The translations under genes and the position numbers were made by a program. A model generated the notes under the pieces. The model saw nothing but the letters and a program-made list of their open reading frames with translations. It was not told the origin of the DNA and did no database searches. Shown piece after piece: positions 5,341-36,807 of a stretch of 44,033 nucleotides of DNA. Source of the DNA: a virus. Every line of letters starts with the position of its first letter. The stretch's first letter is position 1. The stretch is from UHGV virus genome UHGV-0039449; one strand, written 5' to 3'.

Positions 5341-5355
5341 TTACCCAAAAGGTAA
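5341..5355. promoter_or_regulatory. Palindromic site TTACC-CAAAA-GGTAA (candidate operator at the leftward early promoter)
   Basis: Perfect 5+5+5 palindrome between the repressor terminator and the start of the leftward operon. Confidence 0.55.
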
Positions 5356-5365
5356 TCTAACAGGC

Positions 5366-5390
5366 AATAAAAAAGCCGCCATGAGGCGGC
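5366..5390 (-). terminator. Rho-independent terminator after the repressor gene
   Basis: Minus strand GCCGCC-TCAT-GGCGGC followed by TTTTTTATT. Confidence 0.6.
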
Positions 5391-5412
5391 TTACTTGCTG
5401 AAAACTATAGTT

Positions 5413-5997
5413 TTATTGTTTGTTTTTTTCGTTCTGGTTGATGACAAATTCAATGTAACTTTCGATCTTTGCTTTCTCGGTTTCGGGTAACAATGCGTAG
5501 CGCGAGCGGTCATAGTTGATAGTCGCAGGGTCGTGCGGGTGAATCAGTAATTCATAGCCATGACGCCCGAATGCGGATGCAACATTCTCCAGGGTGGAAA
5601 TGGAAACGCTGACCTCATTGTTTAACAGGCGGCTGATTGTCACCTGGGCGACGCCGGATGCGCGGTGAAGTTTTCCCTGCGTTGAAAGGTCGCGGCTTTC
5701 GCTCATCCAGCGTTCCAGGTTGTGAGCCGCCAGCTGACCAATGTCGCTTGGGCCGACAGGCTGAAAACCTTCCTGAGAAAGCGAGCGATCGATATCAAGC
5801 CAGTTACGGGGTTTATTGGCGGCAGCTTCAATTTTTCGTGCAACCTGGTCGCCGATAACCTTCTTGCCAAGAGCCCAGCGGTTTACCAGATTTGCCTGAG
5901 TTCCAAGTTTTTCTGCCATCCGCGTCTGAACACCATTGAATTCACGGTCGATCAAGTCGTTGAGATTTTGCCTGCGGACGTCCTGGATACTTTTCAT
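5413..5997 (-). CDS. Putative prophage repressor with tandem XRE-type HTH domains
   Basis: 194 aa with two HTH-like segments (MAEKLGTQANLVNRWALGKK... and VAQVTISRLLNNEVSVSISTLENVASAF). Divergent from the Cro-like gene, with three palindromic sites between them. No S24 peptidase motif seen. Confidence 0.6.
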   Translation of the reverse strand: MKSIQDVRRQNLNDLIDREFNGVQTRMAEKLGTQANLVNRWALGKKVIGDQVARKIEAAANKPRNWLDIDRSLSQEGFQPVGPSDIGQLAAHNLERWMSESRDLSTQGKLHRASGVAQVTISRLLNNEVSVSISTLENVASAFGRHGYELLIHPHDPATINYDRSRYALLPETEKAKIESYIEFVINQNEKNKQ

Positions 5998-6052
5998 TTT
6001 CTGGAAAATCGCCTCATATATGAATCAGTAGATGATTCAATTTAAAGCAATA

Positions 6053-6115
6053 TTACCCAACAGGTAAATGCACCTCATGGGTAACTATCCTTGATTTTTG
6101 TTACCTTATGGGTGA
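6053..6115. promoter_or_regulatory. Three clustered palindromic sites between repressor and cro-like genes
   Basis: 6053-6067 TTACC-CAACA-GGTAA (perfect); 6070-6084 GCACC-TCATG-GGTAA (degenerate); 6101-6115 TTACC-TTATG-GGTGA (one mismatch). Confidence 0.6.
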
Positions 6116-6151
6116 ATATTTATTATCTGAAATAAATATCAGGCAATAGCT

Positions 6152-6382
6152 ATGAGCGATAACGGACATTTCGATTTCAAAAAGCACTGGCTTGCACTTA
6201 CTCCGGATGAGCGTGAAGCCTTCGCACAGGAAGCCGGAACGACGAGTCACTATATCCAGACTCACTTAACAGGTAAGCGCAAAATGCCAGGTAAAGTATT
6301 GATGAATGGGCTTTTTAAAGCCTGTAAAACAAGACAATGGCTGCGCTCAAAAGCAGAACTGGCATACTTCTTCTACTCATGA
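6152..6382 (+). CDS. Cro-like small HTH regulator
   Basis: 76 aa, divergent from the repressor; FAQEAGTTSHYIQTHLTGKRKMPGK is HTH-like; followed by a terminator. Confidence 0.5.
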   Translation: MSDNGHFDFKKHWLALTPDEREAFAQEAGTTSHYIQTHLTGKRKMPGKVLMNGLFKACKTRQWLRSKAELAYFFYS

Positions 6383-6404
6383 TATCCAGCTACAACCCTC
6401 TGTA

Positions 6405-6429
6405 GACCGCCACCCGGCGGTCTTTTCAT
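6405..6429 (+). terminator. Rho-independent terminator after the cro-like gene
   Basis: GACCGCC-ACCC-GGCGGTC followed by TTTTCAT. Confidence 0.6.
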
Positions 6430-6437
6430 ATCTATTC

Positions 6438-6452
6438 GTACCTCAAAGGTAA
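6438..6452. promoter_or_regulatory. Palindromic site GTACC-TCAAA-GGTAA
   Basis: Directly after the terminator downstream of cro, ahead of the replication operon. Confidence 0.45.
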
Positions 6453-6748: not shown

Positions 6749-7564
6749 ATGAGCAGACATGCAACAGATTGGGCCTGGGAGACAGATCCAGGTAGCTCGT
6801 CATTAAAGCTCATACTGCTCTCGATGGCTGACAGAGCCGATGAATATAACCTCTGCTACCCCAGCATAGAACGCCTCGTTAAAGACACTTGCCTGAATAA
6901 AAAAACCGTGCAGGCCGGACTTATATCGCTCATGAAAATGGGGCTTATTTCAGATACCGGAGAGAGAAAGGGAGCGACGAAAAGAGTGCGGGTTTTCTCT
7001 CTTAATATAACCAAAAACGGGAACATTAAAGGCAACCGGGAAGGGGATAATGAACCCGAAAACGGTAATGTTACCGAAAACGGGAATATACCCAAAAACG
7101 GGATGTTGAATGATCCCAAAAACGGGATGTTGAATGATCCCAAAAACGGGATCCAGAACCAGTCATATAACCAGTCATTTAACCAAGAGAGGGAGAGCAG
7201 GACAAAAACCGGGGATTCTGTGCCTCATGACCCCGGCGCAAACAACGCCGTGATGAATAACTTTGTTCCTCCTGGTGGGCCAGGGCAATTAGGCAAATTT
7301 GTCATGCATGAACAATGGCACCCATCAGATGACTTTCTTCGGAAAAGCTCATTGCAGGGGATCTACCTGGACAGTCTGCCAACGGCACAGGAACTTGCAG
7401 AGTTCAGAATTTACTGGATGGCTGAGGGTAAGGCATACCATCAGGCACAGTGGGAGCAGAAGCTGGCAAGGCGGCTGCAGATTAGCAGACAGAAGCAATC
7501 AACATTACCTGATAACAACGTTCCGCACTGGAACAGCCCTGAAGCGTGGGAGGATTTCTTGTGA
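6749..7564 (+). CDS. Replication initiator (lambda O-like; N-terminal HTH, iterons inside the gene)
   Basis: 271 aa; N-terminal HTH-like domain; the central NG-rich peptide repeats are encoded by the DNA iterons; immediately upstream of the P-like gene. Confidence 0.7.
   Translation: MSRHATDWAWETDPGSSSLKLILLSMADRADEYNLCYPSIERLVKDTCLNKKTVQAGLISLMKMGLISDTGERKGATKRVRVFSLNITKNGNIKGNREGDNEPENGNVTENGNIPKNGMLNDPKNGMLNDPKNGIQNQSYNQSFNQERESRTKTGDSVPHDPGANNAVMNNFVPPGGPGQLGKFVMHEQWHPSDDFLRKSSLQGIYLDSLPTAQELAEFRIYWMAEGKAYHQAQWEQKLARRLQISRQKQSTLPDNNVPHWNSPEAWEDFL
7011..7156. repeat. Six iterons (core CCnAAAACGG), candidate replication origin inside the O-like gene
   Basis: Copies start at 7011, 7055, 7073, 7091, 7115 and 7139; copies 4 and 5 are identical 24-mers CCCAAAAACGGGATGTTGAATGAT; copy 2 reads GGTAA where the others read GGGAA/GGGAT. 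Confidence 0.65.
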
Positions 7565-8383: not shown

Positions 8384-8460
8384 TTACCTATCAGGTAATA
8401 AAATATTCTAAACTCTATTGATTTCGTGTCTTATGTGGTTTTTAATTACCTTAGAGGTAA
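8384..8460. promoter_or_regulatory. Two perfect palindromic sites flanking a putative promoter
   Basis: 8384-8398 TTACC-TATCA-GGTAA and 8446-8460 TTACC-TTAGA-GGTAA (ends 4 nt before ATG 8464); TTGATT-N17-TTTAAT between them. Confidence 0.5.
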
Positions 8461-11254: not shown

Positions 11255-11292
11255 GTAGATTATGCATGATGAATTTGATGGTTTTGAATACT

Positions 11293-11318
11293 GCCGCCAA
11301 CTATGGCGGCTTTATTTT
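11293..11318 (+). terminator. Rho-independent terminator just upstream of terS
   Basis: GCCGCC-AACTAT-GGCGGC followed by TTTATTTT; followed by a direct repeat CTATTACCAC-N6-CTATTACCAC. Confidence 0.55.
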
Positions 11319-11361
11319 GCATGGTACTATTACCACAACGGTAACTATTACCACGGTGGTT

Positions 11362-11958
11362 ATGATGCCTGCTGAACCTAAAACCTATAAACGCAAATCA
11401 ACGCAATTTAAGCCACTAACAGCAATGCAGGAGGCTTATTGCCAGTCATACATCAAAACGCCTGAAAACCAGACTCAGGCAGCGATTAACGCAGGATTCT
11501 CCCCAAATACAGCGGCAGTTAAAGCCAGTGTCATGATGCGCGATGAACGCATTCAAAAACGGATTGCCGAGTTGATGGAGGAGCGCAACAAACGAATGCG
11601 CGTCAGTGCTGATTACGTTCTCATGCGCCTGGTGGAGATCGACCAGATGGACGTGATCGACATCCTCAACGACGATGGGAGCCTTAAGCCAATCCGCGAG
11701 TGGCCGAAAATCTGGCGCACTACGCTTAGTGGCTTTGATCTGTCATCGACCATCATGAACATGAACGAGGATTCGATAGAGACAATCCTCAAAAAAATTA
11801 AATGGCCTGACAAGGTGAAGAACCTCGAACTGATTGGTAAGCATGTTGATGTCAACGCGTTCAAAGAACGTCTGGATGTTAATGTGAATGTGACAATTGC
11901 TGATCGCATAGCAGCAGCCAGGAAGCGACTCAAAGAACGTCAGGATGGTAATCAGTGA
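11362..11958 (+). CDS. terS: Terminase small subunit
   Basis: Lies directly upstream of, and overlapping, the large terminase gene; basic N-terminus MMPAEPKTYKRKSTQFKPLTAMQEAYCQ. Start placed at ATG 11362 rather than the hydrophobic extension from 11266. Confidence 0.7.
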   Translation: MMPAEPKTYKRKSTQFKPLTAMQEAYCQSYIKTPENQTQAAINAGFSPNTAAVKASVMMRDERIQKRIAELMEERNKRMRVSADYVLMRLVEIDQMDVIDILNDDGSLKPIREWPKIWRTTLSGFDLSSTIMNMNEDSIETILKKIKWPDKVKNLELIGKHVDVNAFKERLDVNVNVTIADRIAAARKRLKERQDGNQ

Positions 11959-13430
11959 AAGATACAGCGTTATCTCCTGAAGAGCAGTTGATCGAGGATA
12001 TTGCAGGGTTCACTCACGATCCGCTTGGTTATGCCCTCTATGCGTTCCCGTGGGGGGAAGAGGGGACTGAACTGGCACATGCCACCGGTCCACGTCAGTG
12101 GCAGGCCGATGCGTTCCGAGAGATACGTGATCACCTGCAGAATCCAGAGACGCGCTATCAGCCGCTTATGCTGGCACGCGCTTCTGGTCACGGTATTGGT
12201 AAATCCGCATTCATCTCAATGCTGATCAACTGGGGCATGTCCACTTGCGAGGATTGTAAGGTCGTGGTGACCGCCAACACCGACAACCAGCTACGAACGA
12301 AGACCTGGCCGGAAATTATCAAGTGGTCGAACCTTGCTATCACGAAAGACTGGTTTACCTGTACCGCTACCGCGATGTACAGCAATGACCTAGGGCACGA
12401 CAAGCGGTGGCGGGCTGACGCAATACCCTGGTCTGAGCACAACACCGAGGCATTCGCCGGACTACACAACGAGCGCAAACGCATCATCGTGGTGTTTGAT
12501 GAAGCGTCGAACATTGCGGATCTGGTGTGGGAAGTTGCCGAGGGTGCGCTTACGGACGAAGACACTGAGATTATTTGGGTGGCGTTCGGAAACCCTACAC
12601 GTAACACCGGGCGTTTTCGCGAATGTTTCCGCAAATATAAACACCGCTGGAAAACTGCGCAGATTGACAGCCGGACGGTGGAAGGCACTAACAAACAGCA
12701 GTTGCAGAAATGGGTTGATGACTACGGGGAAGACAGCGACTTCGTTAAAATCCGTGTGCGCGGTATATTCCCGGATGCATCTGAATTGCAGTTTATCCCT
12801 ACCGGCCTTACTGACGAGGCAATGAAACGGGTGGTAACCGCTGCGCAGGTTGCACATGCTCCGGTGATAATCGGCGTTGACCCGGCATACTCCGGCGTTG
12901 ATGACGCTGTGATATACCTGCGGCAGGGGCTGCACAGTAAGGTGCTGTGGACCGGCAACAAGACCACTGACGATCTGATTATGGCAAAGCGTATCGCTGA
13001 CTTTGAAGACCAGTATCAGGCTGACGCGGTGTTCATCGACTTCGGTTACGGTACCGGGCTGAAGTCAATCGGTGACGGTTGGGGGCGCACATGGCAACTT
13101 GTTCCGTTCGGTGGCGCGTCTACTGACCCGCAGATGCTCAACAAGCGTGGGGAGATGTTCAACTCATGCAAGACATGGCTGAGGCTGGGCGGCATGCTGG
13201 ATGACCAGGAAACAGCGGACGACCTGTCGGCGGCAGAGTACAAAGTTCGCGTGGACGGTAAAATCGTTATCGAACCGAAGGAAGATATCAAAGAGCGGCT
13301 TGGGCGTTCTCCTGGTAAAGGCGATGCGCTACTGCTGACGTTTGCGTTCCCTGTGTCGAAGCGTCTGCGAATTCCCGGGCAGCAGAACCAGCAAGGCAAG
13401 GCGCTTACCGAGTACGATCCATATGCTTAG
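11955..13430 (+). CDS. terL: Terminase large subunit
   Basis: 491 aa; Walker A-like ARASGHGIGKS; Walker B-like IIVVFDEAS; C-terminal nuclease-like region; GTG start overlapping the terS stop. Confidence 0.85.
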   Translation: MKDTALSPEEQLIEDIAGFTHDPLGYALYAFPWGEEGTELAHATGPRQWQADAFREIRDHLQNPETRYQPLMLARASGHGIGKSAFISMLINWGMSTCEDCKVVVTANTDNQLRTKTWPEIIKWSNLAITKDWFTCTATAMYSNDLGHDKRWRADAIPWSEHNTEAFAGLHNERKRIIVVFDEASNIADLVWEVAEGALTDEDTEIIWVAFGNPTRNTGRFRECFRKYKHRWKTAQIDSRTVEGTNKQQLQKWVDDYGEDSDFVKIRVRGIFPDASELQFIPTGLTDEAMKRVVTAAQVAHAPVIIGVDPAYSGVDDAVIYLRQGLHSKVLWTGNKTTDDLIMAKRIADFEDQYQADAVFIDFGYGTGLKSIGDGWGRTWQLVPFGGASTDPQMLNKRGEMFNSCKTWLRLGGMLDDQETADDLSAAEYKVRVDGKIVIEPKEDIKERLGRSPGKGDALLLTFAFPVSKRLRIPGQQNQQGKALTEYDPYA

Positions 13431-14245
13431 TCTTTATTTTTATCATCGAAACCTGATAATCCAGATAGAACACCAAAGTTATTAAAAACGTTTGGCTTAC
13501 CAGATTTTAATCCGGATAAGTTGTGTTGCTCCAAAAAGTTGCTAATTGTTTGGCCGTTGCCAAGTGCAAGGCTTTTTATTTGAGATTTTTCAGGGTATTT
13601 GAGTTTGTATTCGTCGAAATCATTTTGGAGGGTCTTATATGCCTCATTCATTCTTCCCAGAGTTTCCGATATCTCTTTTAATGAATGATTTAGAGCTGCT
13701 AACTGAGCACTGGCGGATCTCAATTCGTCATCTTTAGCTTTCAACTCGGCAGTCAATTCCCCCATACTATTCTTTGATCGAATAATCTCTTCTTTCATCT
13801 CTTGGATGTCTTTTTCCGCGCCAGTCTTAACTTTGTCGTATGTAACATCTTTTTTAGCCAATAACCTCTGCAGTCTGGTTTCACGCTGGATTTTTCTTGC
13901 CTTCAGGTGATTTTCGATTGAGTCATTATTATCAAGAGGCTTTGCTTGCCATACGTTAATGATATTGTTTACCCATGGTAATAGGCAGCAGATAGCAATT
14001 ACAGATAAGCATGGATAAAACATAACAGTTTTCCATGTGCTGTTATCTGAGATATATGAAATTTTATCTATTATGTTTGATTTGCTAAAAAATAGATAAA
14101 GAATTGATTTCCAGTTGAAGGCGCACCAGGACATAACAAAAGCACCAAGCACAGGGTTTTTGGCTCGATTCACGGCAGTATTGGCAGTAGATAAAAACAG
14201 CTCTTTAAACGATTCAAACATGCTAATTACCTTGAAGTTTTTCAT
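13427..14245 (-). CDS. Membrane-anchored coiled-coil protein of unknown function (moron)
   Basis: 272 aa from ATG 14245; two predicted TM segments followed by a long coiled coil; about 30% GC against the phage background; antisense insertion between terL and the portal gene; TATAAT directly abuts the start codon. Confidence 0.5.
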   Translation of the reverse strand: MKNFKVISMFESFKELFLSTANTAVNRAKNPVLGAFVMSWCAFNWKSILYLFFSKSNIIDKISYISDNSTWKTVMFYPCLSVIAICCLLPWVNNIINVWQAKPLDNNDSIENHLKARKIQRETRLQRLLAKKDVTYDKVKTGAEKDIQEMKEEIIRSKNSMGELTAELKAKDDELRSASAQLAALNHSLKEISETLGRMNEAYKTLQNDFDEYKLKYPEKSQIKSLALGNGQTISNFLEQHNLSGLKSGKPNVFNNFGVLSGLSGFDDKNKD

Positions 14246-14249
14246 GATT

Positions 14250-14264
14250 ATACCTTTAAGGTAA
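14250..14264. promoter_or_regulatory. Palindromic site ATACC-TTTAA-GGTAA at the start of the membrane coiled-coil moron
   Basis: Overlaps the TATAAT that abuts the minus-strand ATG at 14245. Confidence 0.4.
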
Positions 14265-14280
14265 TTTGCGGTCATCAAGC

Positions 14281-14304
14281 AAAAAAATGCCCGGCGAACC
14301 GGGC
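14281..14304 (-). terminator. Rho-independent terminator closing the tRNA transcription unit
   Basis: Minus strand GCCCGG-TTCG-CCGGGC followed by TTTTTTT. Confidence 0.6.
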
Positions 14305-14380
14305 GAACTGGAAGCAATGAGTTATGCCTTCCGTGGCTGTACGGGTTTACAGCATGAAGTCATCGCAATGGCGTCCTGCT

Positions 14381-14424
14381 GTAAAAAGGGCGGTGATAGT
14401 CCTTCAAGGGAAACCATCACCGCC
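14381..14424 (-). terminator. Stem-loop with T-run immediately 3' of the tRNA
   Basis: Minus strand GGCGGTGAT-(18-nt loop)-ATCACCGCC followed by CTTTTTAC. Confidence 0.45.
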
Positions 14425-14467
14425 AAGCCCCTGGAACTTCTGGCATCACGGTCCTTAGGCGTGATTC

Positions 14468-14866: not shown

Positions 14867-14881
14867 TTACCTGAAAGGTAA
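14867..14881. promoter_or_regulatory. Palindromic site TTACC-TGAAA-GGTAA upstream of the portal operon
   Basis: Perfect site about 90 nt upstream of ATG 14972. Confidence 0.5.
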
Positions 14882-14971
14882 TAATTAGTGCGTTAAATGT
14901 CAAGTGTCTACGATAAATAAATCACATGTGGTTAAATTGGTAATAATTTAATTGCGTACGGAGTCATTGAT

Positions 14972-15178: not shown

Positions 15179-15192
15179 CCGGAGTCATTGAA

Positions 15193-17165: not shown

Positions 17166-17167
17166 TC

Positions 17168-17863: not shown

Positions 17864-17877
17864 GAGAGGAAATGACA

Positions 17878-24152: not shown

Positions 24153-24164
24153 GGGGATAATAAG

Positions 24165-28477: not shown

Positions 28478-28482
28478 ATTAA

Positions 28483-30957
28483 ATGAGACAGGAATGTATA
28501 CAAGCGGTCCAGCAGGCGGCGCAGCGCACGTTAACGGCGCGAGAAATACAGAACATTGAAGACCGCATTTATCGAAATATGCGCTCTATTGCTCGTGATG
28601 ACCCGATGTCGTGGAGACAACTTTCCGAATCAGAGCGGCTATATCGTGCAGCACAATTGGCATCTGAAGAATTACAGCGAGAAGCGGCATTAAAGAAACG
28701 TCGTGTGGCCCTCACTATAGCCGCACGTCAGAGATTGGATAAATTTATCAATAGCTATCAAGGGGCTGATGGGAAACTTGGCGCTCTTAACCGTACTATT
28801 GCTTTTAATGCAGACGGTAAATCGAATTTCCTCTCTGTTGAATCCAGAACAAAAGCCACCCGTGATTATGCATTGAGTCAATTGCAGGAGGCATTCGAAG
28901 CAGTTGATCCTCGCTTTTTTGGTCTGTTTGAAGATGAAGCTGGCGTACGTGACCTGGTATATGAAATGCGGGGGCAAAATACTGGCAATGCTAAAGCAAG
29001 AAAAGGTGCTAAGGCGTGGAGAGAAGTTACAGAGCTGCTGCGCCGCCGGTTTAATGATGCTGGTGGGGACATTGGCTATCTCGAAAACTGGGGGATCCCT
29101 CAACATCATTCTATGGAAAAGGTTGGGGCGGTATCAAAAGATAAATGGGTTAGCGATGTTATAGGTAAGCTGGATCGCAAATATTATACCCGAGCCGATG
29201 GACAACTGATGAACGATGCCGAGTTGTCTGCATTTCTTGGAGAGGCTTATAACACGATCGCTACTGGTGGGTTGAATAAGCTTACTGATACCGGAATGCG
29301 AATTTCCGGCGCACGTGCTAACCGTGGTAATGCATCACGACAGATACATTTCAAAGATGCAGATTCCTATCTTCAATATCAGCAACTTTATGGCGATCGC
29401 TCTCTATGGGAAATCATGGTCGGTCACCTGGAAGGTATCAGTAAAGATATTGCACTGGTGGAAACATATGGCCCAAACCCCGATCATGTTTTCCGCTCTC
29501 TTCTTGATCAGGTGAAGGCAGAAACGGCAACAGCTAACCCGAGTAAAACCGGTAAAGTCGAGCGGCTGGCGAACAACACAGAGAATCTGTACAACTTTAT
29601 TTCCGGAAAGACACAGCCTGTAGCGAATCCGCACATCGCGCGATGGTCTGACAATATCCGCAACTGGCTGGTTGCCAGCAGACTCGGATCCGCGTTGCTG
29701 TCATCGTTCTCTGATCTTGGAACCATGTATCTGTCTGCGAAGGTTACCAACCTTCCAATGAACCAGTTATTCCGCAACCAGCTTGAAGCTATGGACCCAA
29801 CGAACCGTACAGAACTTGCGCGGGCGCGCCGCGCTGGTCTGGCGATGGAATCTCTACTTGGCAGCGTTAACCGCTGGGCGATGGATAATATGGGGCCGTC
29901 TGTGTCTCGTTGGGCTGCAACGGCGGTAATGCGTGCCAGTGGGCTTACAGCATGGTCAGATGCGCACAAGCGCGCCTATGGCGTAACCATGATGGGAAGC
30001 TTGGGAGAAGTAGTGTCACGGACACCAGACCTTCGTAGCCTCGATGATTCTGATTTTCGTATCCTGAAAAGCAAAGGGATTACTGACACAGACTGGAGCG
30101 TATGGAAGCTGGCGCAACAGGAGGACTGGGGGAACGGCAATAATACGATGCTGACACCGGAAAGCATTATGCGTATCCCTGATTCAGCAGTTAAACATCT
30201 TGGTGAGCCTGAACGCGTGAAATTTGAGGCAATGCGTAAACTGCTCGGTGCCGTAACTGAAGAAGTTGATATGGCTGTTATTACACCGGGAGCACGTGAG
30301 CAACTGATAACCGGTTCTGGTATTCAGCGTGGAACATGGAAAGGTGAATTAACGAGAAGTGTTTTCCTGTTTAAATCGTTCCCTATCTCGGTGGTTATGC
30401 GTCACTGGTCACGCGCTATGGGTATGCCGTCTGCTGGTGGGCGTGCGGCATATATTGCGACGTTTATTGCCAGTACGACCATTCTTGGCGCTTTGTCGCA
30501 GCAACTTAACGACCTTGCGTCTGGTCGTAATCCTCGCGAGATGACAGGAGAAGATGCTGCTAAATTTTGGCTTGGTGCTCTACTGAAAGGTGGTGGTCTT
30601 GGCCTTTACGGTGACTTTTTATTGTCAGATCACACTAGGTACGGAAGCGGCGCGCTGGCGTCGATGCTTGGCCCGGTAGCTGGTCTGGTTGATGACGTAG
30701 TGAAGATTGCTCAGGGCATACCGTTAAATGCTGTGGAAGGGAAGAGTGAGCAGACTGGTGGTGATCTGGTGAAGCTGGGGAAAGGTTTGATGCCTGGTGC
30801 GAATCTCTGGTACTTGAAGGCGGCTCTCGATCACATGATCTTTAACCAGATGCAGGAGTATTTTTCACCAGGCTATTTGCGTAAAATGGAGCAACGTTCG
30901 AAGAAAGAGTTTAACCAGACATACTGGTGGCGACCACAGGATGTCACTCCGCAATAA
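28483..30957 (+). CDS. Internal virion / ejection protein (large)
   Basis: 824 aa; last gene of the late operon before an AT-rich moron segment. Confidence 0.55.
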   Translation: MRQECIQAVQQAAQRTLTAREIQNIEDRIYRNMRSIARDDPMSWRQLSESERLYRAAQLASEELQREAALKKRRVALTIAARQRLDKFINSYQGADGKLGALNRTIAFNADGKSNFLSVESRTKATRDYALSQLQEAFEAVDPRFFGLFEDEAGVRDLVYEMRGQNTGNAKARKGAKAWREVTELLRRRFNDAGGDIGYLENWGIPQHHSMEKVGAVSKDKWVSDVIGKLDRKYYTRADGQLMNDAELSAFLGEAYNTIATGGLNKLTDTGMRISGARANRGNASRQIHFKDADSYLQYQQLYGDRSLWEIMVGHLEGISKDIALVETYGPNPDHVFRSLLDQVKAETATANPSKTGKVERLANNTENLYNFISGKTQPVANPHIARWSDNIRNWLVASRLGSALLSSFSDLGTMYLSAKVTNLPMNQLFRNQLEAMDPTNRTELARARRAGLAMESLLGSVNRWAMDNMGPSVSRWAATAVMRASGLTAWSDAHKRAYGVTMMGSLGEVVSRTPDLRSLDDSDFRILKSKGITDTDWSVWKLAQQEDWGNGNNTMLTPESIMRIPDSAVKHLGEPERVKFEAMRKLLGAVTEEVDMAVITPGAREQLITGSGIQRGTWKGELTRSVFLFKSFPISVVMRHWSRAMGMPSAGGRAAYIATFIASTTILGALSQQLNDLASGRNPREMTGEDAAKFWLGALLKGGGLGLYGDFLLSDHTRYGSGALASMLGPVAGLVDDVVKIAQGIPLNAVEGKSEQTGGDLVKLGKGLMPGANLWYLKAALDHMIFNQMQEYFSPGYLRKMEQRSKKEFNQTYWWRPQDVTPQ

Positions 30958-31848: not shown

Positions 31849-32481
31849 TTAATGCAGTTTATCTTTGCTTATAACCAGTAGTCTGTGGGTATGCACATCT
31901 TTATCACTGCCCCAACAGAAATCAGCCCACTGGCTATAGAAATCATCCCATGATGTCATGAAGCTAAGAGGTCTATCTTCTTCAGAGCCATCTGAAACGT
32001 ATACATTATATCCTGGGGTGTTTATAGCCCAAGAAATCATTCTTTCCCAGAATCTTCTCCCATCGATTGTTTGTTGCTCATCAGATACAACGATCGCATA
32101 TTGCTCTAGGAAGAACTGAAAAAAAATCTGAGGCAAACCATGAACAGCACGGTCATGAATAACATTAGGCGTACGCCATACCATGATCTGCGTACATGTT
32201 CTTTTGGCTTCGACGATATCTTCCCGAAAGATTAACTTAACCGCATACACCGTTTCTGGAGTATCGCTGGTAGTAATCATTCTGTAATGATCGCCATTAC
32301 AAGATTTTACAAGGCGATAACCATAAGGTGTTGTGAATCCCGGAAGAACGAAATCAACCACACCTTTCGCTAAGTAGCTTTCGGTGTGACTAGTGTTCTT
32401 CTCAGACATGTTCAGTTTTCTATCGAAATCTGCTTCTGGGATAATGTATGGCATCGCTTTTCTTGTTGTATTTGTTCTCAT
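31849..32481 (-). CDS. Hypothetical protein (210 aa) of unknown function
   Basis: GGGAGG RBS 5 nt upstream; perfect TTACC-N5-GGTAA site about 60 nt upstream; own terminator; no recognisable domain. Confidence 0.5.
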   Translation of the reverse strand: MRTNTTRKAMPYIIPEADFDRKLNMSEKNTSHTESYLAKGVVDFVLPGFTTPYGYRLVKSCNGDHYRMITTSDTPETVYAVKLIFREDIVEAKRTCTQIMVWRTPNVIHDRAVHGLPQIFFQFFLEQYAIVVSDEQQTIDGRRFWERMISWAINTPGYNVYVSDGSEEDRPLSFMTSWDDFYSQWADFCWGSDKDVHTHRLLVISKDKLH

Positions 32482-32539
32482 TTCGTCCTCCCATGTTTGG
32501 CTACAGGACGCGTTTTGAAGGGAAGATTAAAAATGCTTT

Positions 32540-32554
32540 CTTACCCTTGAGGTA
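32540..32554. promoter_or_regulatory. Palindromic site TTACC-CTTGA-GGTAA upstream of the 210-aa gene
   Basis: Perfect site about 60 nt upstream of the minus-strand start at 32481. Confidence 0.5.
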
Positions 32555-32627
32555 ATAGTACGCTATTCACCCCCAGTCTGCAATCTGTACAGAATTATTT
32601 AAAGGCACATCCCTGTGCCGCCGCCCG

Positions 32628-33284
32628 TCAGAAGAACCCTGCCTTGTCGTTGATGTACTCCGCGTGCGTCTGGATATCACGCAGGCATTTGCTCACACCA
32701 ACGATGTAGCAGAACATGGTGGTCAGCTCCGCCGCCGCGCCCGATACGTCGTGCCCGTCGTCCTGTAACTGGTTCAGCAGATTCATCAGCAGTGAGTTCT
32801 CCGTCAGGCCGAGAACACCAGACGGCGAGTGAATCAGGCTGCGGTAGCCGGGCTTCAGTGGGGCACTGTATTCTTTTTTGTCTTCCAGCTTGATCGCCTC
32901 CATAATGGCGGGCATGAAGCCTGACAAGACCTTCTCCACTTTTGTTTCTTGTTGTCTTAAACGTTTCTCGCATTCAATGAAGTAGCGTCGCACCTGGCGA
33001 CCTTTTTCGTTACGCTCGACCATCGCCAGCTCTTTGGCTGTATCAAGGGTGAGGTGGTACTCTTTGCGGTTGTGGCCGCCTCTACCAGATGTTTGCTTTC
33101 CCAAATTGGAAAGCAAAATATAGTCTTGATTTTCAATGAATTCGTATTCTGATATGCGATTTGTAATCCATGCTGCAAACACCTTTTTAACACCTAAAAA
33201 AGCGTGCAGATCGCGGGCATTACAAAGTAGGGCTGTTTCGTTAGATATAGTGCCGTTGAATACGGGGATGAGTTGAGCGTTCAT
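32628..33284 (-). CDS. Phage antirepressor (AntA-type N-terminal domain)
   Basis: 218 aa; [32 protein letters not shown]...[33 protein letters not shown] matches the AntA/AntB N-domain; GGAG RBS. Confidence 0.7.
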
Positions 33285-33555: not shown

Positions 33556-33570
33556 TTACCGCAAAGGTAA
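33556..33570. promoter_or_regulatory. Palindromic site TTACC-GCAAA-GGTAA between the small Ant paralogue and ant
   Basis: Perfect site in the long leader region upstream of ant. Confidence 0.45.
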
Positions 33571-33601: not shown

Positions 33602-33874
33602 TTATCTGGTTTGTTTTCGTAATTGTTCGGCACAATAGTCGAGATGTGTTTGCAGATCCTGCATAGACATCTGTGAGCTGGTGACGTAGTTAATCAGTGC
33701 AGTCAGTTCGGCAAGTGGGCCATCGACATTAAATCCATCCTTATCGAGATCCCGGAGTAATTTCATCAAGTGCGATCCCTCCACCAGTGACCTGACGCCT
33801 CCCGGCGTGTGAATCCTTTCGGTAAATCCCTCTTCCAGTGGATAGTGATACTGCTGCATCTTAATCTTCTCCAT
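33602..33874 (-). CDS. Small protein paralogous to the antirepressor C-terminal domain; candidate SOS-inducible antirepressor
   Basis: Aligns by eye to Ant residues about 150-210 (TPGGVRSLVEGSHLMKLLRDLDKDGFNVDGPLAELTALINYV vs [42 protein letters not shown]). Likely start is the second ATG at 33859; LexA-like box 33880-33899 just upstream. Confidence 0.5.
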   Translation of the reverse strand: MEKIKMQQYHYPLEEGFTERIHTPGGVRSLVEGSHLMKLLRDLDKDGFNVDGPLAELTALINYVTSSQMSMQDLQTHLDYCAEQLRKQTR

Positions 33875-33879: not shown

Positions 33880-33899
33880 AACTGTATATTTATACAGTA
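33880..33899. promoter_or_regulatory. LexA (SOS) box-like sequence AACTGTATATTTATACAGTA
   Basis: CTGT-N8-ACAG with AT-rich spacer, 18 of 20 matches to the E. coli LexA consensus as I recall it; 20-40 nt upstream of the small Ant-paralogue start. Confidence 0.6.
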
Positions 33900-33936
33900 G
33901 CAAATAATTTGTTTGCTATCCAGCACGTTTTGCAAA

Positions 33937-33951
33937 TCACCTGAAAGGTAA
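33937..33951. promoter_or_regulatory. Palindromic site TCACC-TGAAA-GGTAA in the divergent region before the tailspike gene
   Basis: Four of five left-half matches, perfect right half; a further half-site GGTAA lies at 33997-34001. Confidence 0.4.
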
Positions 33952-34055
33952 TATCTATTCGAATTCACAGCCTTTCTATCCATATGTGGTTTTTCAGGTA
34001 ATAGAATAACCAGATATGCGGCGCAACGGGTGCTGCGATTATCTGGAGATTTAAC

Positions 34056-36425
34056 ATGACGGTCTCAACCGAAGTTGACCACAACGAATACACAGGTAAC
34101 GGCGTTACGACATCATTTCCGTATACCTTCCGTATTTTCAAAAAATCCGACCTGGTTGTTCAGGTGGTTGACCTTGATGAAAATATTGCTGTGCTGGCTC
34201 TTGATACTGATTACACAGTAACTGGTGCGGGAGGGTACAACGGCGGTAATGTAATTCTGTCGAAGGCGTTGGCTAACGGTTATCAGATTTCTATATCACG
34301 AGACCTCCCGGTTACGCAGGAAACTGATTTGCGTAATCAGGGTAAGTTCTTTGCAGAAGTGCATGAGGATGCTTTTGATAAGCTAACGATGCTGATTCAG
34401 CAGGTTCGAAGCTGGTTCCGGCTGGCGTTGTGTAAGCCATCCAGTATAGCGAATTGGTATGACGCACTTAATAACTATATTCGTAATCTGAAAGACCCAC
34501 GCGACCCTCAGGATGCAGCTACAAAAAACTATGTAGATACCATTGTATTCTCTAACCTTAGCCGAACTCTCCGAGTTCCTGAGCCAATAAATCAGTTACC
34601 TCCAGCAGCAGTTCGGCGGAATATGATGCCAGCATTTGATAATGATGGTAATGCGATTGTTGTTATTCCTCCATCTGGTTCAGCATCTGATGTGCTTATT
34701 CAGTTAGCAAGTTCTTCCGATGGAAAGGGGGATGCTTTAGTTGCAGTTAAACAACCTTATGCTAATTCTGTAACTATTACTCAACATCAGCACAACACCT
34801 ATCTTCTTACCCCTTACCACTTCGGAGCAAAGGGAGATGGTATTGCAGATGACACTCTTGCCCTAAACCGCTGGTCCAATTGCGGAGCTAAGGTACTCTA
34901 TTGGCCAGCAGGAAAATATCTGGTGAGCCCTACAAATGGTGTTTCTCTGGATATGGATAACTACCATACAGGGGATTCCGCACTGACGGCGTGCGTAACC
35001 GTTCCCTATGGCGTGAAAATTTATACGGCTGGGACAGAAACCCAGTTATGCGTGAAGGATGCTGACTCAGCATCGACCGTAGGTCTGGCCGTTAGCTACC
35101 CGGAGTCAAGTTATTCCCAGGGAGAAACCGACATCGGAAAATTCATGATTCGCCTGGAAAACGGAAATGGTCGGTACGGTATTCTTACTCCACTCAGGGA
35201 GGAAATGTTCACTGCGCACCGGGCGAAGTTCAAATTAGGAGCGCATTTCGGTCCTCAACAGGGGCGTGATGAACTGACGGTGCTACAGTATTCGTGGGTA
35301 AATGGCATGCTGATTGGCGACGCTTTTAGCGGCTCAGTGCATGTCACTGGATACGGCAGCTATAACGTGCAGCAGGTTGAAGGTACGCAATTCCAGTGCG
35401 TGGCCGTTAAGATGAAGTCCGTTCGAGGTAACGTAGGTGTAGACATCAGATTCAACACAAACAACTGGTGGAAGTTTGTCGAACTGAGTGACGGCGTTGA
35501 AGGGTTTGTTGTCAAGGACAGCGAAGGGCTTGGGGCATTTGTTGGAATCGACCTAACCAACCCAGCCAGCGAGCCAGGTGGATTTATCGATAACGTACAC
35601 GTCAACGTTAAGCAAAACGGAGTACGAGCCAGAAACAGGCCATCCCTGCAAATCGGAAACATTGAAGTCTATAAAAGTGATGGATTTGCCACTGACCTTG
35701 TTTACGATGCGGTGCTTCTGGTTGACTGCCAGGAAGTGACTATCAACTCTATTCACGCAATCGTCGGCAACTCAATCACAAATGCTCAGTCAGTAGTTAA
35801 CTCGACAAACAGCACATTCCGCCTGAACTCATACTTTGCGCAAAACATCAGGTTCGTCGATTTTGTGGTTAATAGCCCTGACTGCTATGTCGGAGAGGGG
35901 ACAATTAACCAGGTCGAGGCAGTTCACTCACTTTCTGGATCACAAAGCAACGACTTCCACGGTAGTGATGTTCTGGTTAGATCCTACAGAAACAACGTTC
36001 GCCCACTTTACGCAGTGATGGATTCCGCTTTCAACAGGGCAAGGGCGAGGTTTCCACAAAATACAAGCCTCCAGGTGAGAACCTTTCTCGACTACACTGT
36101 GGCAGCAGCTGGGACTTTAACAATAGAACCAAGGCTTGACCCCTCCAGGTACTACATCATCATGAGTGCTGGTACAAGTGCCTTCACCTATTCAATTGAG
36201 CTGGATAAAGTGTCTGCCGTAGTTGGTGATATTGTTTACATAAAGATAGCCGGGTCATCATCTGCTAACCCAACAGTTTTGGTTAAAAATGGTATTGGTG
36301 GGACAACGCTCAGCACATTCAATAATATCGGTCCGATTCGTTTGAATTGTGCTTACAGATTTAATGAGTCAGGTAACTGGGGGGCCTACTACATTACCCA
36401 AAGCGTTGAAACCTCTTATGGCTAA
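34056..36425 (+). CDS. Tailspike / tail fibre with beta-helix (pectate-lyase-like) domain
   Basis: 789 aa; N-terminus YTGNGVTTSFPYTFRIFKKSDLVV...DYTV typical of phage fibre anchor domains; HFGAKGDGIADDTLALNRW is a pectate-lyase-fold signature. Confidence 0.8.
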   Translation: MTVSTEVDHNEYTGNGVTTSFPYTFRIFKKSDLVVQVVDLDENIAVLALDTDYTVTGAGGYNGGNVILSKALANGYQISISRDLPVTQETDLRNQGKFFAEVHEDAFDKLTMLIQQVRSWFRLALCKPSSIANWYDALNNYIRNLKDPRDPQDAATKNYVDTIVFSNLSRTLRVPEPINQLPPAAVRRNMMPAFDNDGNAIVVIPPSGSASDVLIQLASSSDGKGDALVAVKQPYANSVTITQHQHNTYLLTPYHFGAKGDGIADDTLALNRWSNCGAKVLYWPAGKYLVSPTNGVSLDMDNYHTGDSALTACVTVPYGVKIYTAGTETQLCVKDADSASTVGLAVSYPESSYSQGETDIGKFMIRLENGNGRYGILTPLREEMFTAHRAKFKLGAHFGPQQGRDELTVLQYSWVNGMLIGDAFSGSVHVTGYGSYNVQQVEGTQFQCVAVKMKSVRGNVGVDIRFNTNNWWKFVELSDGVEGFVVKDSEGLGAFVGIDLTNPASEPGGFIDNVHVNVKQNGVRARNRPSLQIGNIEVYKSDGFATDLVYDAVLLVDCQEVTINSIHAIVGNSITNAQSVVNSTNSTFRLNSYFAQNIRFVDFVVNSPDCYVGEGTINQVEAVHSLSGSQSNDFHGSDVLVRSYRNNVRPLYAVMDSAFNRARARFPQNTSLQVRTFLDYTVAAAGTLTIEPRLDPSRYYIIMSAGTSAFTYSIELDKVSAVVGDIVYIKIAGSSSANPTVLVKNGIGGTTLSTFNNIGPIRLNCAYRFNESGNWGAYYITQSVETSYG

Positions 36426-36545
36426 TAGTCATTATCAATATCCTGCAGATGTGACCTAACGACAAGCGTCGCCACGATGACAACCACGGAAAGGATGCCG
36501 ATAACCCACCACATAACTTACCCGCGCAAAATGAATGGATAAAAA

Positions 36546-36755
36546 TCATCCGCTGATTGATCCTAATCTTTGCATATTTTTCGAAGATGTTACGTTTAGT
36601 TGGGCGAAAAAAGCAATTACAGCAATGCCACCTATCGACGTAAGTCCGAAAAAGCAAGGCTCAGGTCTGCCGCTAATTGGGTATTGATGGCTTACAAGGA
36701 CTACAAGTGATGCGATAAGCCTGATCACGTCAAAGCAATTATGTCTGTTATTCAT
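36546..36755 (-). pseudogene. Remnant of an acyltransferase-3 family gene (O-antigen acetylase-like)
   Basis: N-terminal 69 aa (FDVIRLIASLVVLVSHQYPISG) match the start of acyltransferase-3 membrane proteins, then a premature stop; the downstream frame is junk. Confidence 0.4.
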
Positions 36756-36792
36756 ATATCCATACTGTAGGAAATAGCGATACGAAACAATA

Positions 36793-36807
36793 TCACCTCA
36801 CGGGTAA
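36793..36807. promoter_or_regulatory. Palindromic site TCACC-TCACG-GGTAA upstream of the lysis cassette
   Basis: About 105 nt upstream of the putative holin start. Confidence 0.4.

What the first reader, a model, noticed from the sequence alone, without database searches (positions are those of the whole stretch)
5341..36807. Genome-wide dispersed 15-bp palindrome TTACC-N5-GGTAA at 13 intergenic sites
Perfect or near-perfect copies lie upstream of nearly every transcription unit: the leftward early promoter, three clustered copies between repressor and cro (an OR1-3-like arrangement), after the cro terminator, twice before the DUF1064 operon, and at the membrane moron, portal operon, 210-aa gene, ant leader, tailspike divergent region and lysis cassette. 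None lies inside a confirmed coding region. This points to one dimeric DNA-binding protein, most likely the tandem-HTH repressor, silencing the whole prophage including late and moron promoters, which resembles the stoperator arrangement of some mycobacteriophages more than lambda.
Basis: seen in the sequence. Interest (0 to 1): 0.7.

Follow-up and report, generated by a model that had tools for sequence, protein, structure and literature searches.

The report
Dispersed repressor operators of an epsilon15-like prophage
The repeated 15-bp palindrome is real and is the operator sequence of the immunity repressor (and probably Cro) of a phiV10/epsilon15-type prophage, placed at almost every promoter region; the same dispersed sites are already annotated as repressor-binding sites in the epsilon15 GenBank record, so it is a sound but known feature.

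Summary
TTACC-N5-GGTAA occurs 9 times perfectly (0.02 expected) and 15 times with up to one mismatch (0.67 expected). With the two-mismatch middle OR site that makes 16 sites, plus a 17th cut by the window's left edge. All 16 lie in the 7.6% of the prophage that is non-coding.

The window is an E. coli Uetakevirus prophage, about 97-98% identical to phiV10. Its 194-aa repressor is identical to phiV10 p40 and homologous over its full length to SPC32H Rep (PDB 5D50).

The motif, its positions and its spacings are conserved in epsilon15, SPC32H, Tyrion and a Klebsiella phage. The spacings are 17+30/31 bp at OR, 62-63 bp around PL and the DUF1064 promoter, and 18 bp before terS. The palindrome arms are invariant and the spacers vary. 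The Rep and Cro recognition helices are invariant.

The epsilon15 GenBank record already annotates seven such sites, including those before terS, portal and tailspike, as repressor binding sites.

The anatomy is promoter-overlapping palindromic operators, not stoperators. Only the sites just after terminators could act as roadblocks. Direct repression of the late promoters is not shown. Novelty: already known. Interest: low to moderate.

The parts
1..11 (.). Right half of a 17th operator (upstream of int), cut by the window edge
   Evidence: Window 1-11 'aaggtatactc' equals the right half of phiV10 26870 TTACCTTAAAGGTATactc, 57 bp upstream of int. The same site is present in epsilon15, SPC32H and Tyrion.
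5278..5292 (.). OL proximal operator (perfect), covering the start region of the leftward early promoter
Evidence: The PL -10 hexamer AATTAT ends at 5292, which is the last base of the site. Conserved in 5 genomes.
5292..5320 (-). PL-like promoter TTGACA-17-AATTAT between the two OL operators
   Evidence: score 11.9. TTGAC and ATTAT are invariant in alignment A7.
5341..5355 (.). OL distal operator (perfect), 20 bp upstream of the PL -35 and 63 bp from 5278
5413..5997 (-). Repressor Rep (194 aa), the probable binder
   Evidence: 100% identical to phiV10 p40. E=4e-42 over the full length to SPC32H Rep 5D50. HTH_3 at residues 106-147 and a weak YdaS-like HTH at 21-61. The helix NLVNRW is invariant in four clades.
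6053..6067 (.). OR site next to rep (perfect); overlaps the -35 of a PRM-like promoter
   Evidence: The minus-strand promoter TTTACC-18-TAAATT runs 6068..6039. Position conserved in 85 loci.
6070..6084 (.). OR middle site (GCACCTCATGGGTAA, 2 mismatches), 17 bp from 6053
   Evidence: The +17 spacing is conserved in 85 loci.
6101..6115 (.). OR site next to cro (TTACC...GGTGA), inside the PR-like promoter
   Evidence: Overlaps TTGTTA-17-TATTAT (6098-6126) or TTGATT-17-GAATAT (6091-6119). This site is a xCACC/GGTGA variant in every one of the 85 loci.
6152..6382 (+). Cro-like protein (76 aa), probable second binder of the same sites
   Evidence: 100% identical to phiV10 p41. phrog_35, transcriptional repressor. 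GTTSHYIQ-HLT is invariant in five genomes, and the intervening residue is T in four and V in one.
6438..6452 (.). Single site (GTACC...) 15 bp after the cro terminator and 17 bp upstream of a TTGATC-17-CAAAAT promoter-like site
   Evidence: (terminator 6404-6423). Present in phiV10, Tyrion and BUCT711.
8384..8398 (.). Distal operator of the DUF1064-operon promoter, just after the terminator of the P gene
8418..8446 (+). Promoter TTGATT-17-TTTAAT sandwiched between the operators at 8384 and 8446
   Evidence: TTGA and the -10 region are conserved in alignment A6.
8446..8460 (.). Proximal operator of the DUF1064-operon promoter, 62 bp from 8384; its right arm also supplies the ribosome-binding site
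   Evidence: The 62-bp spacing is identical in epsilon15, SPC32H, Tyrion and BUCT711.
11330..11344 (.). First of two operators between the terminator 11293-11310 and terS
Evidence: The orthologous epsilon15 site 12-27 is annotated 'protein_bind: repressor'.
11348..11362 (.). Second terS operator (one mismatch), 18 bp from the first, over the ribosome-binding site and start codon
   Evidence: The same pair is present in epsilon15, phiV10 and Tyrion.
14250..14264 (.). Operator (ATACC...) in the spacer and -10 of the promoter of the leftward membrane-protein cargo gene (13427-14221)
   Evidence: Minus-strand promoter ATGACC-17-TATAAT, 14275..14247.
14867..14881 (.). Operator between the leftward tRNA-Arg unit and the rightward portal operon
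   Evidence: The orthologous epsilon15 site 2931-2947 is annotated as a repressor site. The arms are invariant in 5 genomes, and a minus-strand TTGACA lies 17 bp away.
32541..32555 (.). Operator abutting the -10 (TACTAT) of the leftward promoter of a cargo slot (here the 210-aa gene)
   Evidence: The identical operator and promoter precede a YafO toxin module in TL-2011b.
33556..33570 (.). Operator abutting the -10 of a strong leftward promoter (TTGAAA-17-TATATT) for the AntA-like gene and its leader
   Evidence: score 15.4.
33937..33951 (.). Operator (TCACC...) in the small-ant / tailspike divergent region, about 15 bp upstream of the -35 of the LexA-box ant promoter
   Evidence: The orthologous epsilon15 site 19895-19911 is annotated as a repressor site.
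33882..33897 (.). LexA box CTGTATATTTATACAG in front of the small antirepressor gene (33602-33859, minus strand)
   Evidence: The gene is 96% identical to phiV10 p24, lies at the position of the annotated SPC32H ant and matches phrog_450.
36793..36807 (.). Operator (TCACC...GGGTAA) between a truncated O-acetyltransferase remnant (leftward) and the lysis cassette (rightward)
   Evidence: The TCACC variant is conserved in phiV10, SPC32H and Tyrion.

Best explanation
The palindrome tTACC-N5-GGTAa (ACC and GGT invariant; arms often TTACCT/AGGTAA) is the operator of the immunity system of an epsilon15/phiV10-type (Uetakevirus) prophage.

**Binder.** It is bound through the N-terminal helix-turn-helix domains of the Rep repressor (5413-5997). 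Rep is a homologue of SPC32H Rep, which works as a tetramer. The site is very probably also bound by the Cro-like protein (6152-6382).

**Immunity region.** The layout is lambda-like. Three sites between rep and cro overlap PR and PRM. Two sites bracket PL.

**Promoter-operator modules.** The same module is reused at most other transcription-unit boundaries. Either the last T of the -10 hexamer is the first T of the operator, so bound protein covers the transcription start (PL, the DUF1064 operon, the 210-aa cargo slot, the antA-like gene), or the site lies in the promoter spacer (PR, the membrane-protein cargo gene). At PL and the DUF1064 promoter a second operator lies 62-63 bp (six helical turns) away on the other side of the promoter. 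One Rep tetramer with two DNA-binding pairs could clamp both. This is inferred.

**Single sites.** Single sites lie 14-20 bp upstream of the -35 of two further promoters, the post-cro promoter and the LexA-controlled ant promoter. Others lie 30-42 bp upstream of conserved late-promoter-like blocks (portal, tailspike, lysis). A pair 18 bp apart lies just after the terminator in front of terS.

**Net effect.** In the lysogen Rep keeps the early, replication, antirepressor and cargo-slot promoters shut. It probably also blocks read-through into the packaging genes.

**Shown here:** enrichment, non-coding location, conservation of sites and spacings, homology of the proteins, and promoter overlap by consensus scans.

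**Inferred:** physical binding at each site, tetramer clamping, and the effect on late promoters.
For: - **Enrichment and location.** Searches give the enrichment. All 16 sites lie in the 7.6% non-coding DNA. E. coli K-12 is at chance level, with hits only inside genes.
- **Identity of the element.** The window is 97-98% identical to phiV10-type phages.
- **The repressor.** Rep is identical to phiV10 p40 and a full-length homologue of SPC32H Rep 5D50. The identical ZX5 repressor, when overexpressed, stops lytic growth and lowers holin and endolysin mRNA by more than 99.9% (PMC9782041; identity). SPC32H Rep binds palindromic sites as a tetramer (PMC9638917). Its domain order is DBD-MDD-tetramerisation domain (PMC9986798).
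- **Prior annotation.** The epsilon15 GenBank record annotates seven ATTACC-N5-GGTAAT sites as 'protein_bind: repressor', four of them outside the immunity region.
- **Conservation across phages.** The motif is enriched at orthologous places in epsilon15, phiV10, SPC32H, Tyrion and Klebsiella BUCT711. Rep is only 42-78% identical among these, yet the Rep helix NLVNRW and the Cro helix are invariant.
- **Footprint pattern.** In five-genome alignments the arms are invariant and the 5-bp spacers vary.
- **Conserved spacings.** 0/+17/+47-48 at OR in 85 loci. 62-63 bp pairs occur in more than 120 viral contigs, which are almost all Uetakevirus-like.
- **Promoter overlap.**
Against: - No binding data exist for this prophage or for the dispersed sites. 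The two primary SPC32H papers and the epsilon15 genome paper could not be read here.
- Promoters are consensus predictions only.
- At portal, tailspike and lysis the operator does not overlap the most conserved promoter-like block.
- The lysis-region site also lies upstream of lysogenic-conversion genes in phiV10 and epsilon15, and these are expected to be expressed in lysogens. Simple repression at every site is therefore unlikely.
- Rep and Cro cannot be told apart by sequence analysis.
Confidence: 0.85

Rival explanations
1. The dispersed sites (outside OR and OL) work mainly as roadblocks to transcription that reads through terminators. This would be stoperator-like, rather than promoter-occluding.
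For: Three loci sit 10-15 bp behind rho-independent terminators: 6438 after the cro terminator, 8384 after the P-gene terminator, and 11330/11348 after terminator 11293-11310. In front of terS there is no room for a -35 hexamer between the terminator and the operators.
Against: The sites are palindromic and carry no orientation. Most overlap or bracket promoter-like hexamers that are conserved in five genomes. Site 8384 is the upstream partner of a promoter sandwich identical in layout to PL.
Confidence: 0.25
2. The dispersed sites are used chiefly by Cro during lytic growth, to turn down early, cargo and antirepressor promoters in time. Rep would matter only at OR and OL.
For: Cro's helix-turn-helix is as invariant as Rep's across the genus. 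Specific positions always carry the xCACC/GGTGA variant half-site (the cro-proximal OR site in 85 loci; the lysis-region site). That fits sites tuned for different affinities of two proteins.
Against: Nothing distinguishes the dispersed sites from the perfect OR and OL sites. The epsilon15 annotators assigned them to the repressor. Overexpressed Rep alone shuts lysis-gene transcription, although that could be indirect.
Confidence: 0.3
3. At some single sites, centred roughly 60-80 bp upstream of a predicted start, the bound protein activates rather than represses. Candidate sites are the conversion-gene/lysis region, the portal region and the tailspike region.
For: With the -10 assignments proposed by eye in the full report (not tool predictions, and differing from the best scan hit at portal), the operator centres lie about 70-80 bp upstream of the inferred late -10 elements. 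That position is typical of upstream activators rather than repressors. The lysis-region site also lies upstream of conversion genes that must be expressed in lysogens.
Against: There is no evidence that Rep contacts RNA polymerase. The start sites are not mapped. The same sites also lie beside leftward promoter-like hexamers.
Confidence: 0.12
4. The palindrome acts at the RNA level, as a small hairpin that hides the ribosome-binding site or stabilises the mRNA.
For: At 8446, 11348 and 14250 the right arm (AGGT/GGTGG) doubles as the Shine-Dalgarno sequence.
Against: The predicted hairpins are weak, at -2 to -7 kcal/mol. Several sites lie upstream of promoters and would not be transcribed (5341, 8384). 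The arms are conserved but there is no compensatory variation.
Confidence: 0.03
5. The motif is a host transcription-factor site, a chance feature of AT-rich intergenic DNA, or a recombination scar at module boundaries.
For: The sites sit at module junctions where cargo differs between relatives.
Against: Dinucleotide-preserving shuffles give 0.02 expected copies. The E. coli K-12 control is at chance and its hits are in coding DNA. The pattern of invariant arms with variable spacers is that of a protein-binding dyad. The motif co-occurs with Rep and Cro homologues across four host genera.
Confidence: 0.03

Closest known systems
Repressor-binding sites annotated in Salmonella phage epsilon15 (GenBank AY150271.2), and the Rep/Ant switch of Salmonella phage SPC32H
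   Same: The same genus, the same gene order and the same palindrome (ATTACC-N5-GGTAAT). The sites occupy the same places: before terS, before the portal operon, in the ant/tailspike divergent region, at PL, and before the gene after the replication genes. The repressor is a full-length homologue of SPC32H Rep. A small Ant gene with a LexA box is present.
   Different: - The Rep clade differs (42% identity to epsilon15 and SPC32H Rep).
- There are two OL sites rather than three.
- There are extra sites at two cargo slots (14250, 32541) and after the cro terminator.
- The epsilon15 record does not annotate its own OR sites or its lysis-region site.
Lambda-type OR/OL operators
   Same: Three sites lie between divergent repressor and cro genes and overlap PR- and PRM-like promoters. 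Multiple sites lie at PL. The same sites are probably shared by repressor and Cro. The cro-proximal site is a conserved sequence variant.
   Different: - The operators are not confined to the immunity region.
- The repressor has no autocleavage domain and is inactivated by an antirepressor.
- The half-site spacing differs. From memory, lambda is TCACC-N3-GGTGA within 17 bp.
Stoperators of cluster A mycobacteriophages (L5, Bxb1); comparison from general knowledge, not tested against sequences here
   Same: Many copies of the true operator sequence are spread through the prophage in short intergenic regions, and presumably all are bound by the immunity repressor. The post-terminator sites could block elongating polymerase.
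   Different: Stoperators are asymmetric 13-bp sites, oriented with transcription, and act inside transcription units. Here the sites are palindromic, fewer (16-17), and mostly overlap or bracket promoters.
Conserved inverted repeats (CIRs) bound by the repressor of Streptomyces phage phiC31; from memory
   Same: A palindromic operator of about 17 bp is dispersed at many intergenic promoter and terminator regions of a temperate phage.
   Different: The repressor family and the host are unrelated. No sequence or structural comparison was made here.

Membership tests
Uetakevirus (epsilon15/phiV10/SPC32H) Rep-Ant immunity system and its operators | Repressor homologous over its full length to SPC32H Rep (N-terminal DNA-binding domain, middle dimerisation domain, C-terminal tetramerisation/Ant-binding domain) | tested here: met
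   phmmer E=4e-42, residues 1-190 against 2-197 of 5D50. Domain description from PMC9986798.
Uetakevirus (epsilon15/phiV10/SPC32H) Rep-Ant immunity system and its operators | Palindrome identical to the sites annotated as repressor-binding in epsilon15, at orthologous positions | tested here: met
Uetakevirus (epsilon15/phiV10/SPC32H) Rep-Ant immunity system and its operators | Small antirepressor gene with a LexA box upstream, divergent from the tailspike gene | tested here: met
   The gene at 33602-33859 is 96% identical to phiV10 p24 and matches phrog_450. SPC32H ant is annotated at the same place. The LexA box lies at 33882-33897.
Uetakevirus (epsilon15/phiV10/SPC32H) Rep-Ant immunity system and its operators | Rep physically binds the palindrome | not testable with these tools
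   Only second-hand statements are available. PMC9638917 says Rep binds palindromic sites as a tetramer. The primary papers are not held.
Lambda-type immunity region | Tripartite operator between divergent repressor and cro genes, overlapping both promoters | tested here: met
   Sites 6053, 6070 and 6101. Conserved in 85 loci.
Lambda-type immunity region | Repressor with a C-terminal S24 peptidase domain for RecA-stimulated self-cleavage | tested here: not met
   Pfam finds only HTH families. Inactivation is by Ant in the SPC32H system.
Lambda-type immunity region | Operators confined to the immunity region | tested here: not met
   Eleven of the 16 sites lie outside OR and OL.
Stoperators (cluster A mycobacteriophages) | Asymmetric site with a fixed orientation relative to transcription | tested here: not met
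   The site is a perfect dyad. ACC and GGT are invariant, and T6/A10 are symmetric.
Stoperators (cluster A mycobacteriophages) | Sites lie within transcription units, downstream of promoters, and act on elongation | tested here: inconclusive
   Three loci lie directly behind terminators. The others overlap or bracket promoter-like hexamers. No transcription data are available.
Stoperators (cluster A mycobacteriophages) | Same sequence as the genuine operator at the early lytic promoter | tested here: met
   The dispersed sites and the OR and OL sites share one consensus.

The most novel reading that the evidence does not exclude
Rep, as a tetramer, would be a global regulator of essentially every transcription unit of Uetakeviruses.
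- It would clamp promoters between operator pairs set six helical turns apart.
- It would guard terminator exits.
- It would control fixed 'cargo slots', whose interchangeable genes (a 210-aa protein here, a YafO toxin module in TL-2011b) would then be induction-coupled rather than lysogen-expressed morons.
- Operator and recognition helices are invariant across phages of Salmonella, Escherichia, Enterobacter and Klebsiella. Immunity specificity in this genus would therefore reside in Rep-Ant pairing, not in operator recognition.
Probability: 0.3. Interest if true: 0.45.

Novelty: already known. Interest (0 to 1): 0.25.

Why it matters
The result gives a complete operator map for a phiV10-type prophage, a phage used as an E. 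coli O157 reporter and typing phage. It corrects some annotations: the terS start, a missed tRNA, and the role of the second HTH-like domain. It also states testable rules: the -10 hexamer abutting the operator, operator pairs 62-63 bp apart, and variant half-sites at fixed positions. The idea itself, a single repressor operator scattered over an epsilon15-like genome, is already in the public annotation of epsilon15, and the repressor family has been studied structurally. It therefore does not open a new kind of system. The open points are whether late genes are controlled directly and how the cargo slots behave in lysogens.

Tried and rejected
- **Primary literature.** I tried to read the epsilon15 genome paper (DOI and PMC2698709) and the two SPC32H papers (PMC3807360, PMC4983836). 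None is held. Full-text searches for the motif or for operator descriptions in epsilon15, phiV10 or SPC32H papers found no open-access description.\n- **RNA hairpin idea.** Rejected. The hairpins are weak and several sites are not transcribed.\n- **Degenerate partner sites.** I looked for a partner about 62 bp from the single sites (6438, 14867, 33937, 36793). At most half-sites were found, so no hidden pairs are claimed (reading of the sequence).\n- **Leftward promoter at 14910..14881 (TAGACA-18-AATTAT).** It is not conserved in epsilon15. The alternative, TTGACA-17-TACCTT, is conserved but has a weak -10.\n- **Defence function for the two cargo proteins.** PADLOC gave only coiled-coil noise, and PHROGs gave families of unknown function.\n- **Contigs without Uetakevirus proteins.** A few viral contigs found with the paired pattern have no Uetakevirus proteins. 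They carry their own arrays of the same core next to unrelated XRE repressors, or as iteron-like repeats. They are unrelated systems and were not used as evidence.\n- **Technical note.** Loci fetched in parallel were not all copied to the script machine, so Tyrion, BUCT711 and two K-12 segments were scanned with the DNA search instead.

Full report
**What the window is.**
- The window is an integrated E. coli prophage of the epsilon15/phiV10 group (genus Uetakevirus). It is 97-98% identical over most of its length to phiV10, phiv142-3, PAS61 and relatives.
- Mapping the phiV10 proteins onto the window gives the gene order:
  - int (50-1300);
  - a leftward early operon that starts at 5258;
  - the repressor (5413-5997, minus strand, 100% identical to phiV10 p40);
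  - cro (6152-6382), then the replication genes dnaT and P;
  - a DUF1064 operon (from 8464);
  - terS and terL;
  - a leftward cargo gene and a tRNA;
  - the portal-to-tail operon (14972-30957);
  - three leftward genes: a 210-aa protein, an AntA-like protein and a small Ant;
  - tailspike (34056-36425) and the lysis cassette (36912-38724).
- Host DNA follows from about 38.9 kb.

**Checking the observation.**
- TTACC-N5-GGTAA occurs 9 times perfectly, against 0.02 expected from dinucleotide-preserving shuffles. It occurs 15 times with at most one mismatch, against 0.67 expected.
- Adding the two-mismatch site at 6070, which sits exactly 17 bp from 6053, gives 16 sites.
- The window also begins with the right half of one more site, which lies upstream of int in phiV10.
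- With a curated gene list, the prophage is 7.6% non-coding, and all 16 sites lie in that fraction.
- The only doubtful case is terS. The phiV10 annotation starts the gene upstream of the two sites, but that start runs through a rho-independent terminator. The protein from 11362/11365 matches the annotated epsilon15 terS start.
- In 150 kb of E. coli K-12 there are one perfect and three one-mismatch copies, all inside genes.

**Anatomy of the site.**
- Across the 16 copies, ACC (positions 3-5) and GGT (11-13) never vary. Positions 6 and 10 are mostly T and A, so many arms are TTACCT/AGGTAA. The central bases vary and are A/T-rich.
- In alignments of five genomes from four host genera, the arms are invariant while the spacers differ. 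This holds for the portal, ant/tailspike, lysis, DUF1064/ruvC and PL regions. It is the signature of a symmetric protein-binding site.
- As RNA the palindromes would form only weak hairpins of -2 to -7 kcal/mol, and several copies lie upstream of promoters.

**Who binds it.**
- The repressor is a full-length homologue of SPC32H Rep (5D50, E=4e-42).
- According to papers I could read, SPC32H Rep has an N-terminal DNA-binding domain, a middle dimerisation domain and a C-terminal tetramerisation/Ant-binding domain. It binds palindromic DNA as a tetramer and is disassembled by the antirepressor Ant (PMC9986798 and PMC9638917).
- Pfam sees the middle domain as HTH_3, and sees only a weak YdaS-like HTH in the N-terminal domain.
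- The ZX5 phage repressor is the identical protein. When overexpressed it abolishes free phage and lowers holin and endolysin mRNA by more than 99.9% (PMC9782041).
- Rep proteins of the E. coli, Enterobacter, Klebsiella and Salmonella clades are only 42-78% identical, but the helix NLVNRW is invariant. The Cro helix GTTSHYIQ(T/V)HLT is near-invariant, with only the one T/V position varying. In about 90 related viral contigs both helices remain highly conserved with minor variants, NL(V/I)(N/S)R(W/Y) in Rep and mostly GTTSHYIQTHLT in Cro.
- The unchanged operator across the genus fits this. Sequence analysis cannot separate Rep from Cro, and both probably use the sites.

**It is already annotated.**
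- The epsilon15 GenBank record (AY150271.2) carries seven 'protein_bind: repressor / lysogeny' features. Their sequences are ATTACC-N5-GGTAAT. They lie:
  - before terS (12-27);
  - before the portal operon (2931-2947);
  - in the divergent region upstream of tailspike (19895-19911);
  - three at PL;
  - one before the gene that follows the replication genes.
- My scans find 15 sites (one mismatch or fewer) in epsilon15, 14 in phiV10, 18 in SPC32H (several of the one-mismatch hits lie inside genes and look like chance), 15 in Tyrion and 13 in Klebsiella phage BUCT711. They lie mostly at orthologous places, and each count far exceeds chance.
- The paper that presumably describes the epsilon15 sites (Kropinski et al. 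2007) is not held. Whether the text discusses the dispersal is from my memory only.

**Relation to promoters (consensus predictions only).**
- PL is TTGACA-17-AATTAT (5320..5292). The last T of the -10 is the first base of operator 5278-5292. A second operator lies 20 bp upstream of the -35, 63 bp from the first.
- The DUF1064-operon promoter is the mirror image: operator 8384, a 19-bp gap, TTGATT-17-TTTAAT, then operator 8446, with 62 bp between the operators.
- This sandwich and its 62-63 bp spacing are the same in all five genomes. A pattern search for such pairs returned more than 120 viral contigs, nearly all Uetakevirus-like, usually with two pairs about 3 kb apart.
- Six helical turns between two dyads fits one tetramer holding both. 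This is an inference.
- The same '-10 abuts operator' layout recurs at three other places:
  - the 210-aa cargo slot (TTGCAG-17-TACTAT, site 32541);
  - the antA-like gene (TTGAAA-17-TATATT, site 33556, the strongest predicted promoter);
  - terS, as a -10-like TACTAT without a -35.
- At OR the three sites overlap PR- and PRM-like promoters. In 85 loci the spacing is 0/+17/+47-48, and the cro-proximal site is always a xCACC/GGTGA variant.
- Site 14250 lies in the spacer and -10 of ATGACC-17-TATAAT, which drives the leftward membrane-protein gene.
- Site 33937 lies about 15 bp upstream of the -35 of a promoter whose -10 overlaps the LexA box in front of the small ant gene. Here a LexA box takes the place of the proximal operator.

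- At portal, tailspike and lysis the best conserved element is not the operator. It is a block 30-42 bp downstream of it: CATATGTGGTT, then about 5 bases, then GGTAATA(A/G)AAT or GTGTATGAT. This block has no -35 hexamer.
- That looks like an activator-dependent late promoter. If so, late genes are off in a lysogen simply because the early operons are off. The upstream operator may then serve the neighbouring leftward promoter (tRNA-Arg unit, ant) or act in some other way.
- The lysis-region site also sits upstream of the lysogenic-conversion genes in phiV10 and epsilon15. Uniform repression at every site is therefore unlikely.
- The stoperator comparison fails on the defining anatomy, which is an asymmetric, oriented site inside a transcription unit. 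It remains plausible only for the sites just behind terminators, especially the terS pair.

**Cargo slots.**
- Two sites absent from phiV10 (14250, 32541) belong to variable regions. The membrane-protein gene has no close match in the phage collection.
- The operator and promoter at 32541 are conserved in relatives that carry different genes behind them. In TL-2011b these are a small protein plus a YafO-family toxin.
- Interchangeable genes are thus placed under an operator-bearing promoter. This raises the untested possibility that they are expressed on induction rather than in the lysogen.

**Verdict.**
- The finding is real, statistically overwhelming and biologically meaningful.
- It is the known operator of the Uetakevirus repressor, in an arrangement already recorded for epsilon15.
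- The most useful additions here are:
  - the full site list for a phiV10-type prophage;
  - the promoter-operator rules and conserved spacings;
  - the genus-wide invariance of operator and recognition helices;
  - the caution about late promoters.
- Confidence that these are Rep/Cro operators is about 0.85.

Noticed in passing
window 14923-14950, 33981-34007, 36840-36862 (also 8430-8446): A second conserved motif lies 30-42 bp downstream of the operator in front of the portal, tailspike and lysis operons. It reads CATAT(G/A)TGGTT, then about 5 bases, then GGTAATA(A/G)AAT or GTGTATGAT. Its core (e.g. ATGTGGTTAAATTGGTAATAATTTAA at portal, GGTAATAGAAT at tailspike) is 100% conserved in five genomes from four host genera, and it has no -35 hexamer. 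It is probably an activator-dependent late promoter. PerC-like and AlpA-like regulators are encoded in the PL operon (2138-2437, 2547-2795).
   Followed up: partly
window 14468-14544 (minus strand), terminator 14424-14389: A tRNA-Arg (anticodon TCT) gene, followed by a terminator, lies between the cargo gene and the portal operon. In phiV10 this stretch is annotated as a hypothetical protein (p04, equivalent to 14287-14535 on the other strand), which is probably a spurious ORF. SPC32H annotates a tRNA-Arg at the same place.
   Followed up: partly
window 11284-11365: The phiV10 GenBank start of terS (equivalent to 11284) runs through a rho-independent terminator and both operators. The start at 11362/11365 matches epsilon15 terS and is more likely.
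   Followed up: yes
window 31849-32555; L129 (TL-2011b) 844-1618: This is a cargo slot. The identical operator plus promoter (TTGCAG-17-TACTAT) precedes a 210-aa protein of unknown function here, and a small protein plus a YafO-family toxin in TL-2011b.
   Followed up: partly
window 32628-33284 and 33602-33874 (both minus strand): The 218-aa AntA-domain protein carries a C-terminal part (residues 135-216) of the same family (phrog_450) as the small SPC32H-type Ant. The prophage therefore has two proteins with this antirepressor module. The larger one has a long leader with an internal terminator (33465-33449).
   Followed up: no
window 36546-36755 (minus strand): A 69-aa ORF matches only the N-terminus of phage O-acetyltransferases (phrog_3333). 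It looks like a remnant of the phiV10 oac conversion gene, left after the tailspike region was replaced (tailspike 59% identical to phiV10 over the N-terminal part only).
   Followed up: no
window 7099-7142: Two identical 20-bp stem-loop units (TGGGATCATTCAACATCCCG) lie in tandem, 24 bp apart, inside the dnaT-like gene. They may be origin iterons.
   Followed up: no
L014 3738-3905, L055 7251-7405, L025 339-688, L097 7642-8012, L108 323-675: Viral contigs with no protein similarity, or almost none, to Uetakeviruses (L108 has one weak Ant-like hit) carry arrays of 4-7 copies of the same TTACC-N5-GGTAA core. In L025 the array lies between two divergent HTH-type ORFs that look like a repressor pair (not family-scanned). 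In L014 and L055 the copies form GGTTACC...GGTAACC repeats spaced 18-23 bp (up to 45 bp), like iterons. The core is therefore reused by unrelated systems.
   Followed up: partly
window 6101-6115, 33937-33951, 36793-36807: The variant half-site xCACC (or GGTGA) is fixed at particular positions across the genus. These are the cro-proximal OR site in 85 loci and the lysis-region site in four of five genomes. This suggests tuned affinity or Rep/Cro discrimination.
   Followed up: partly
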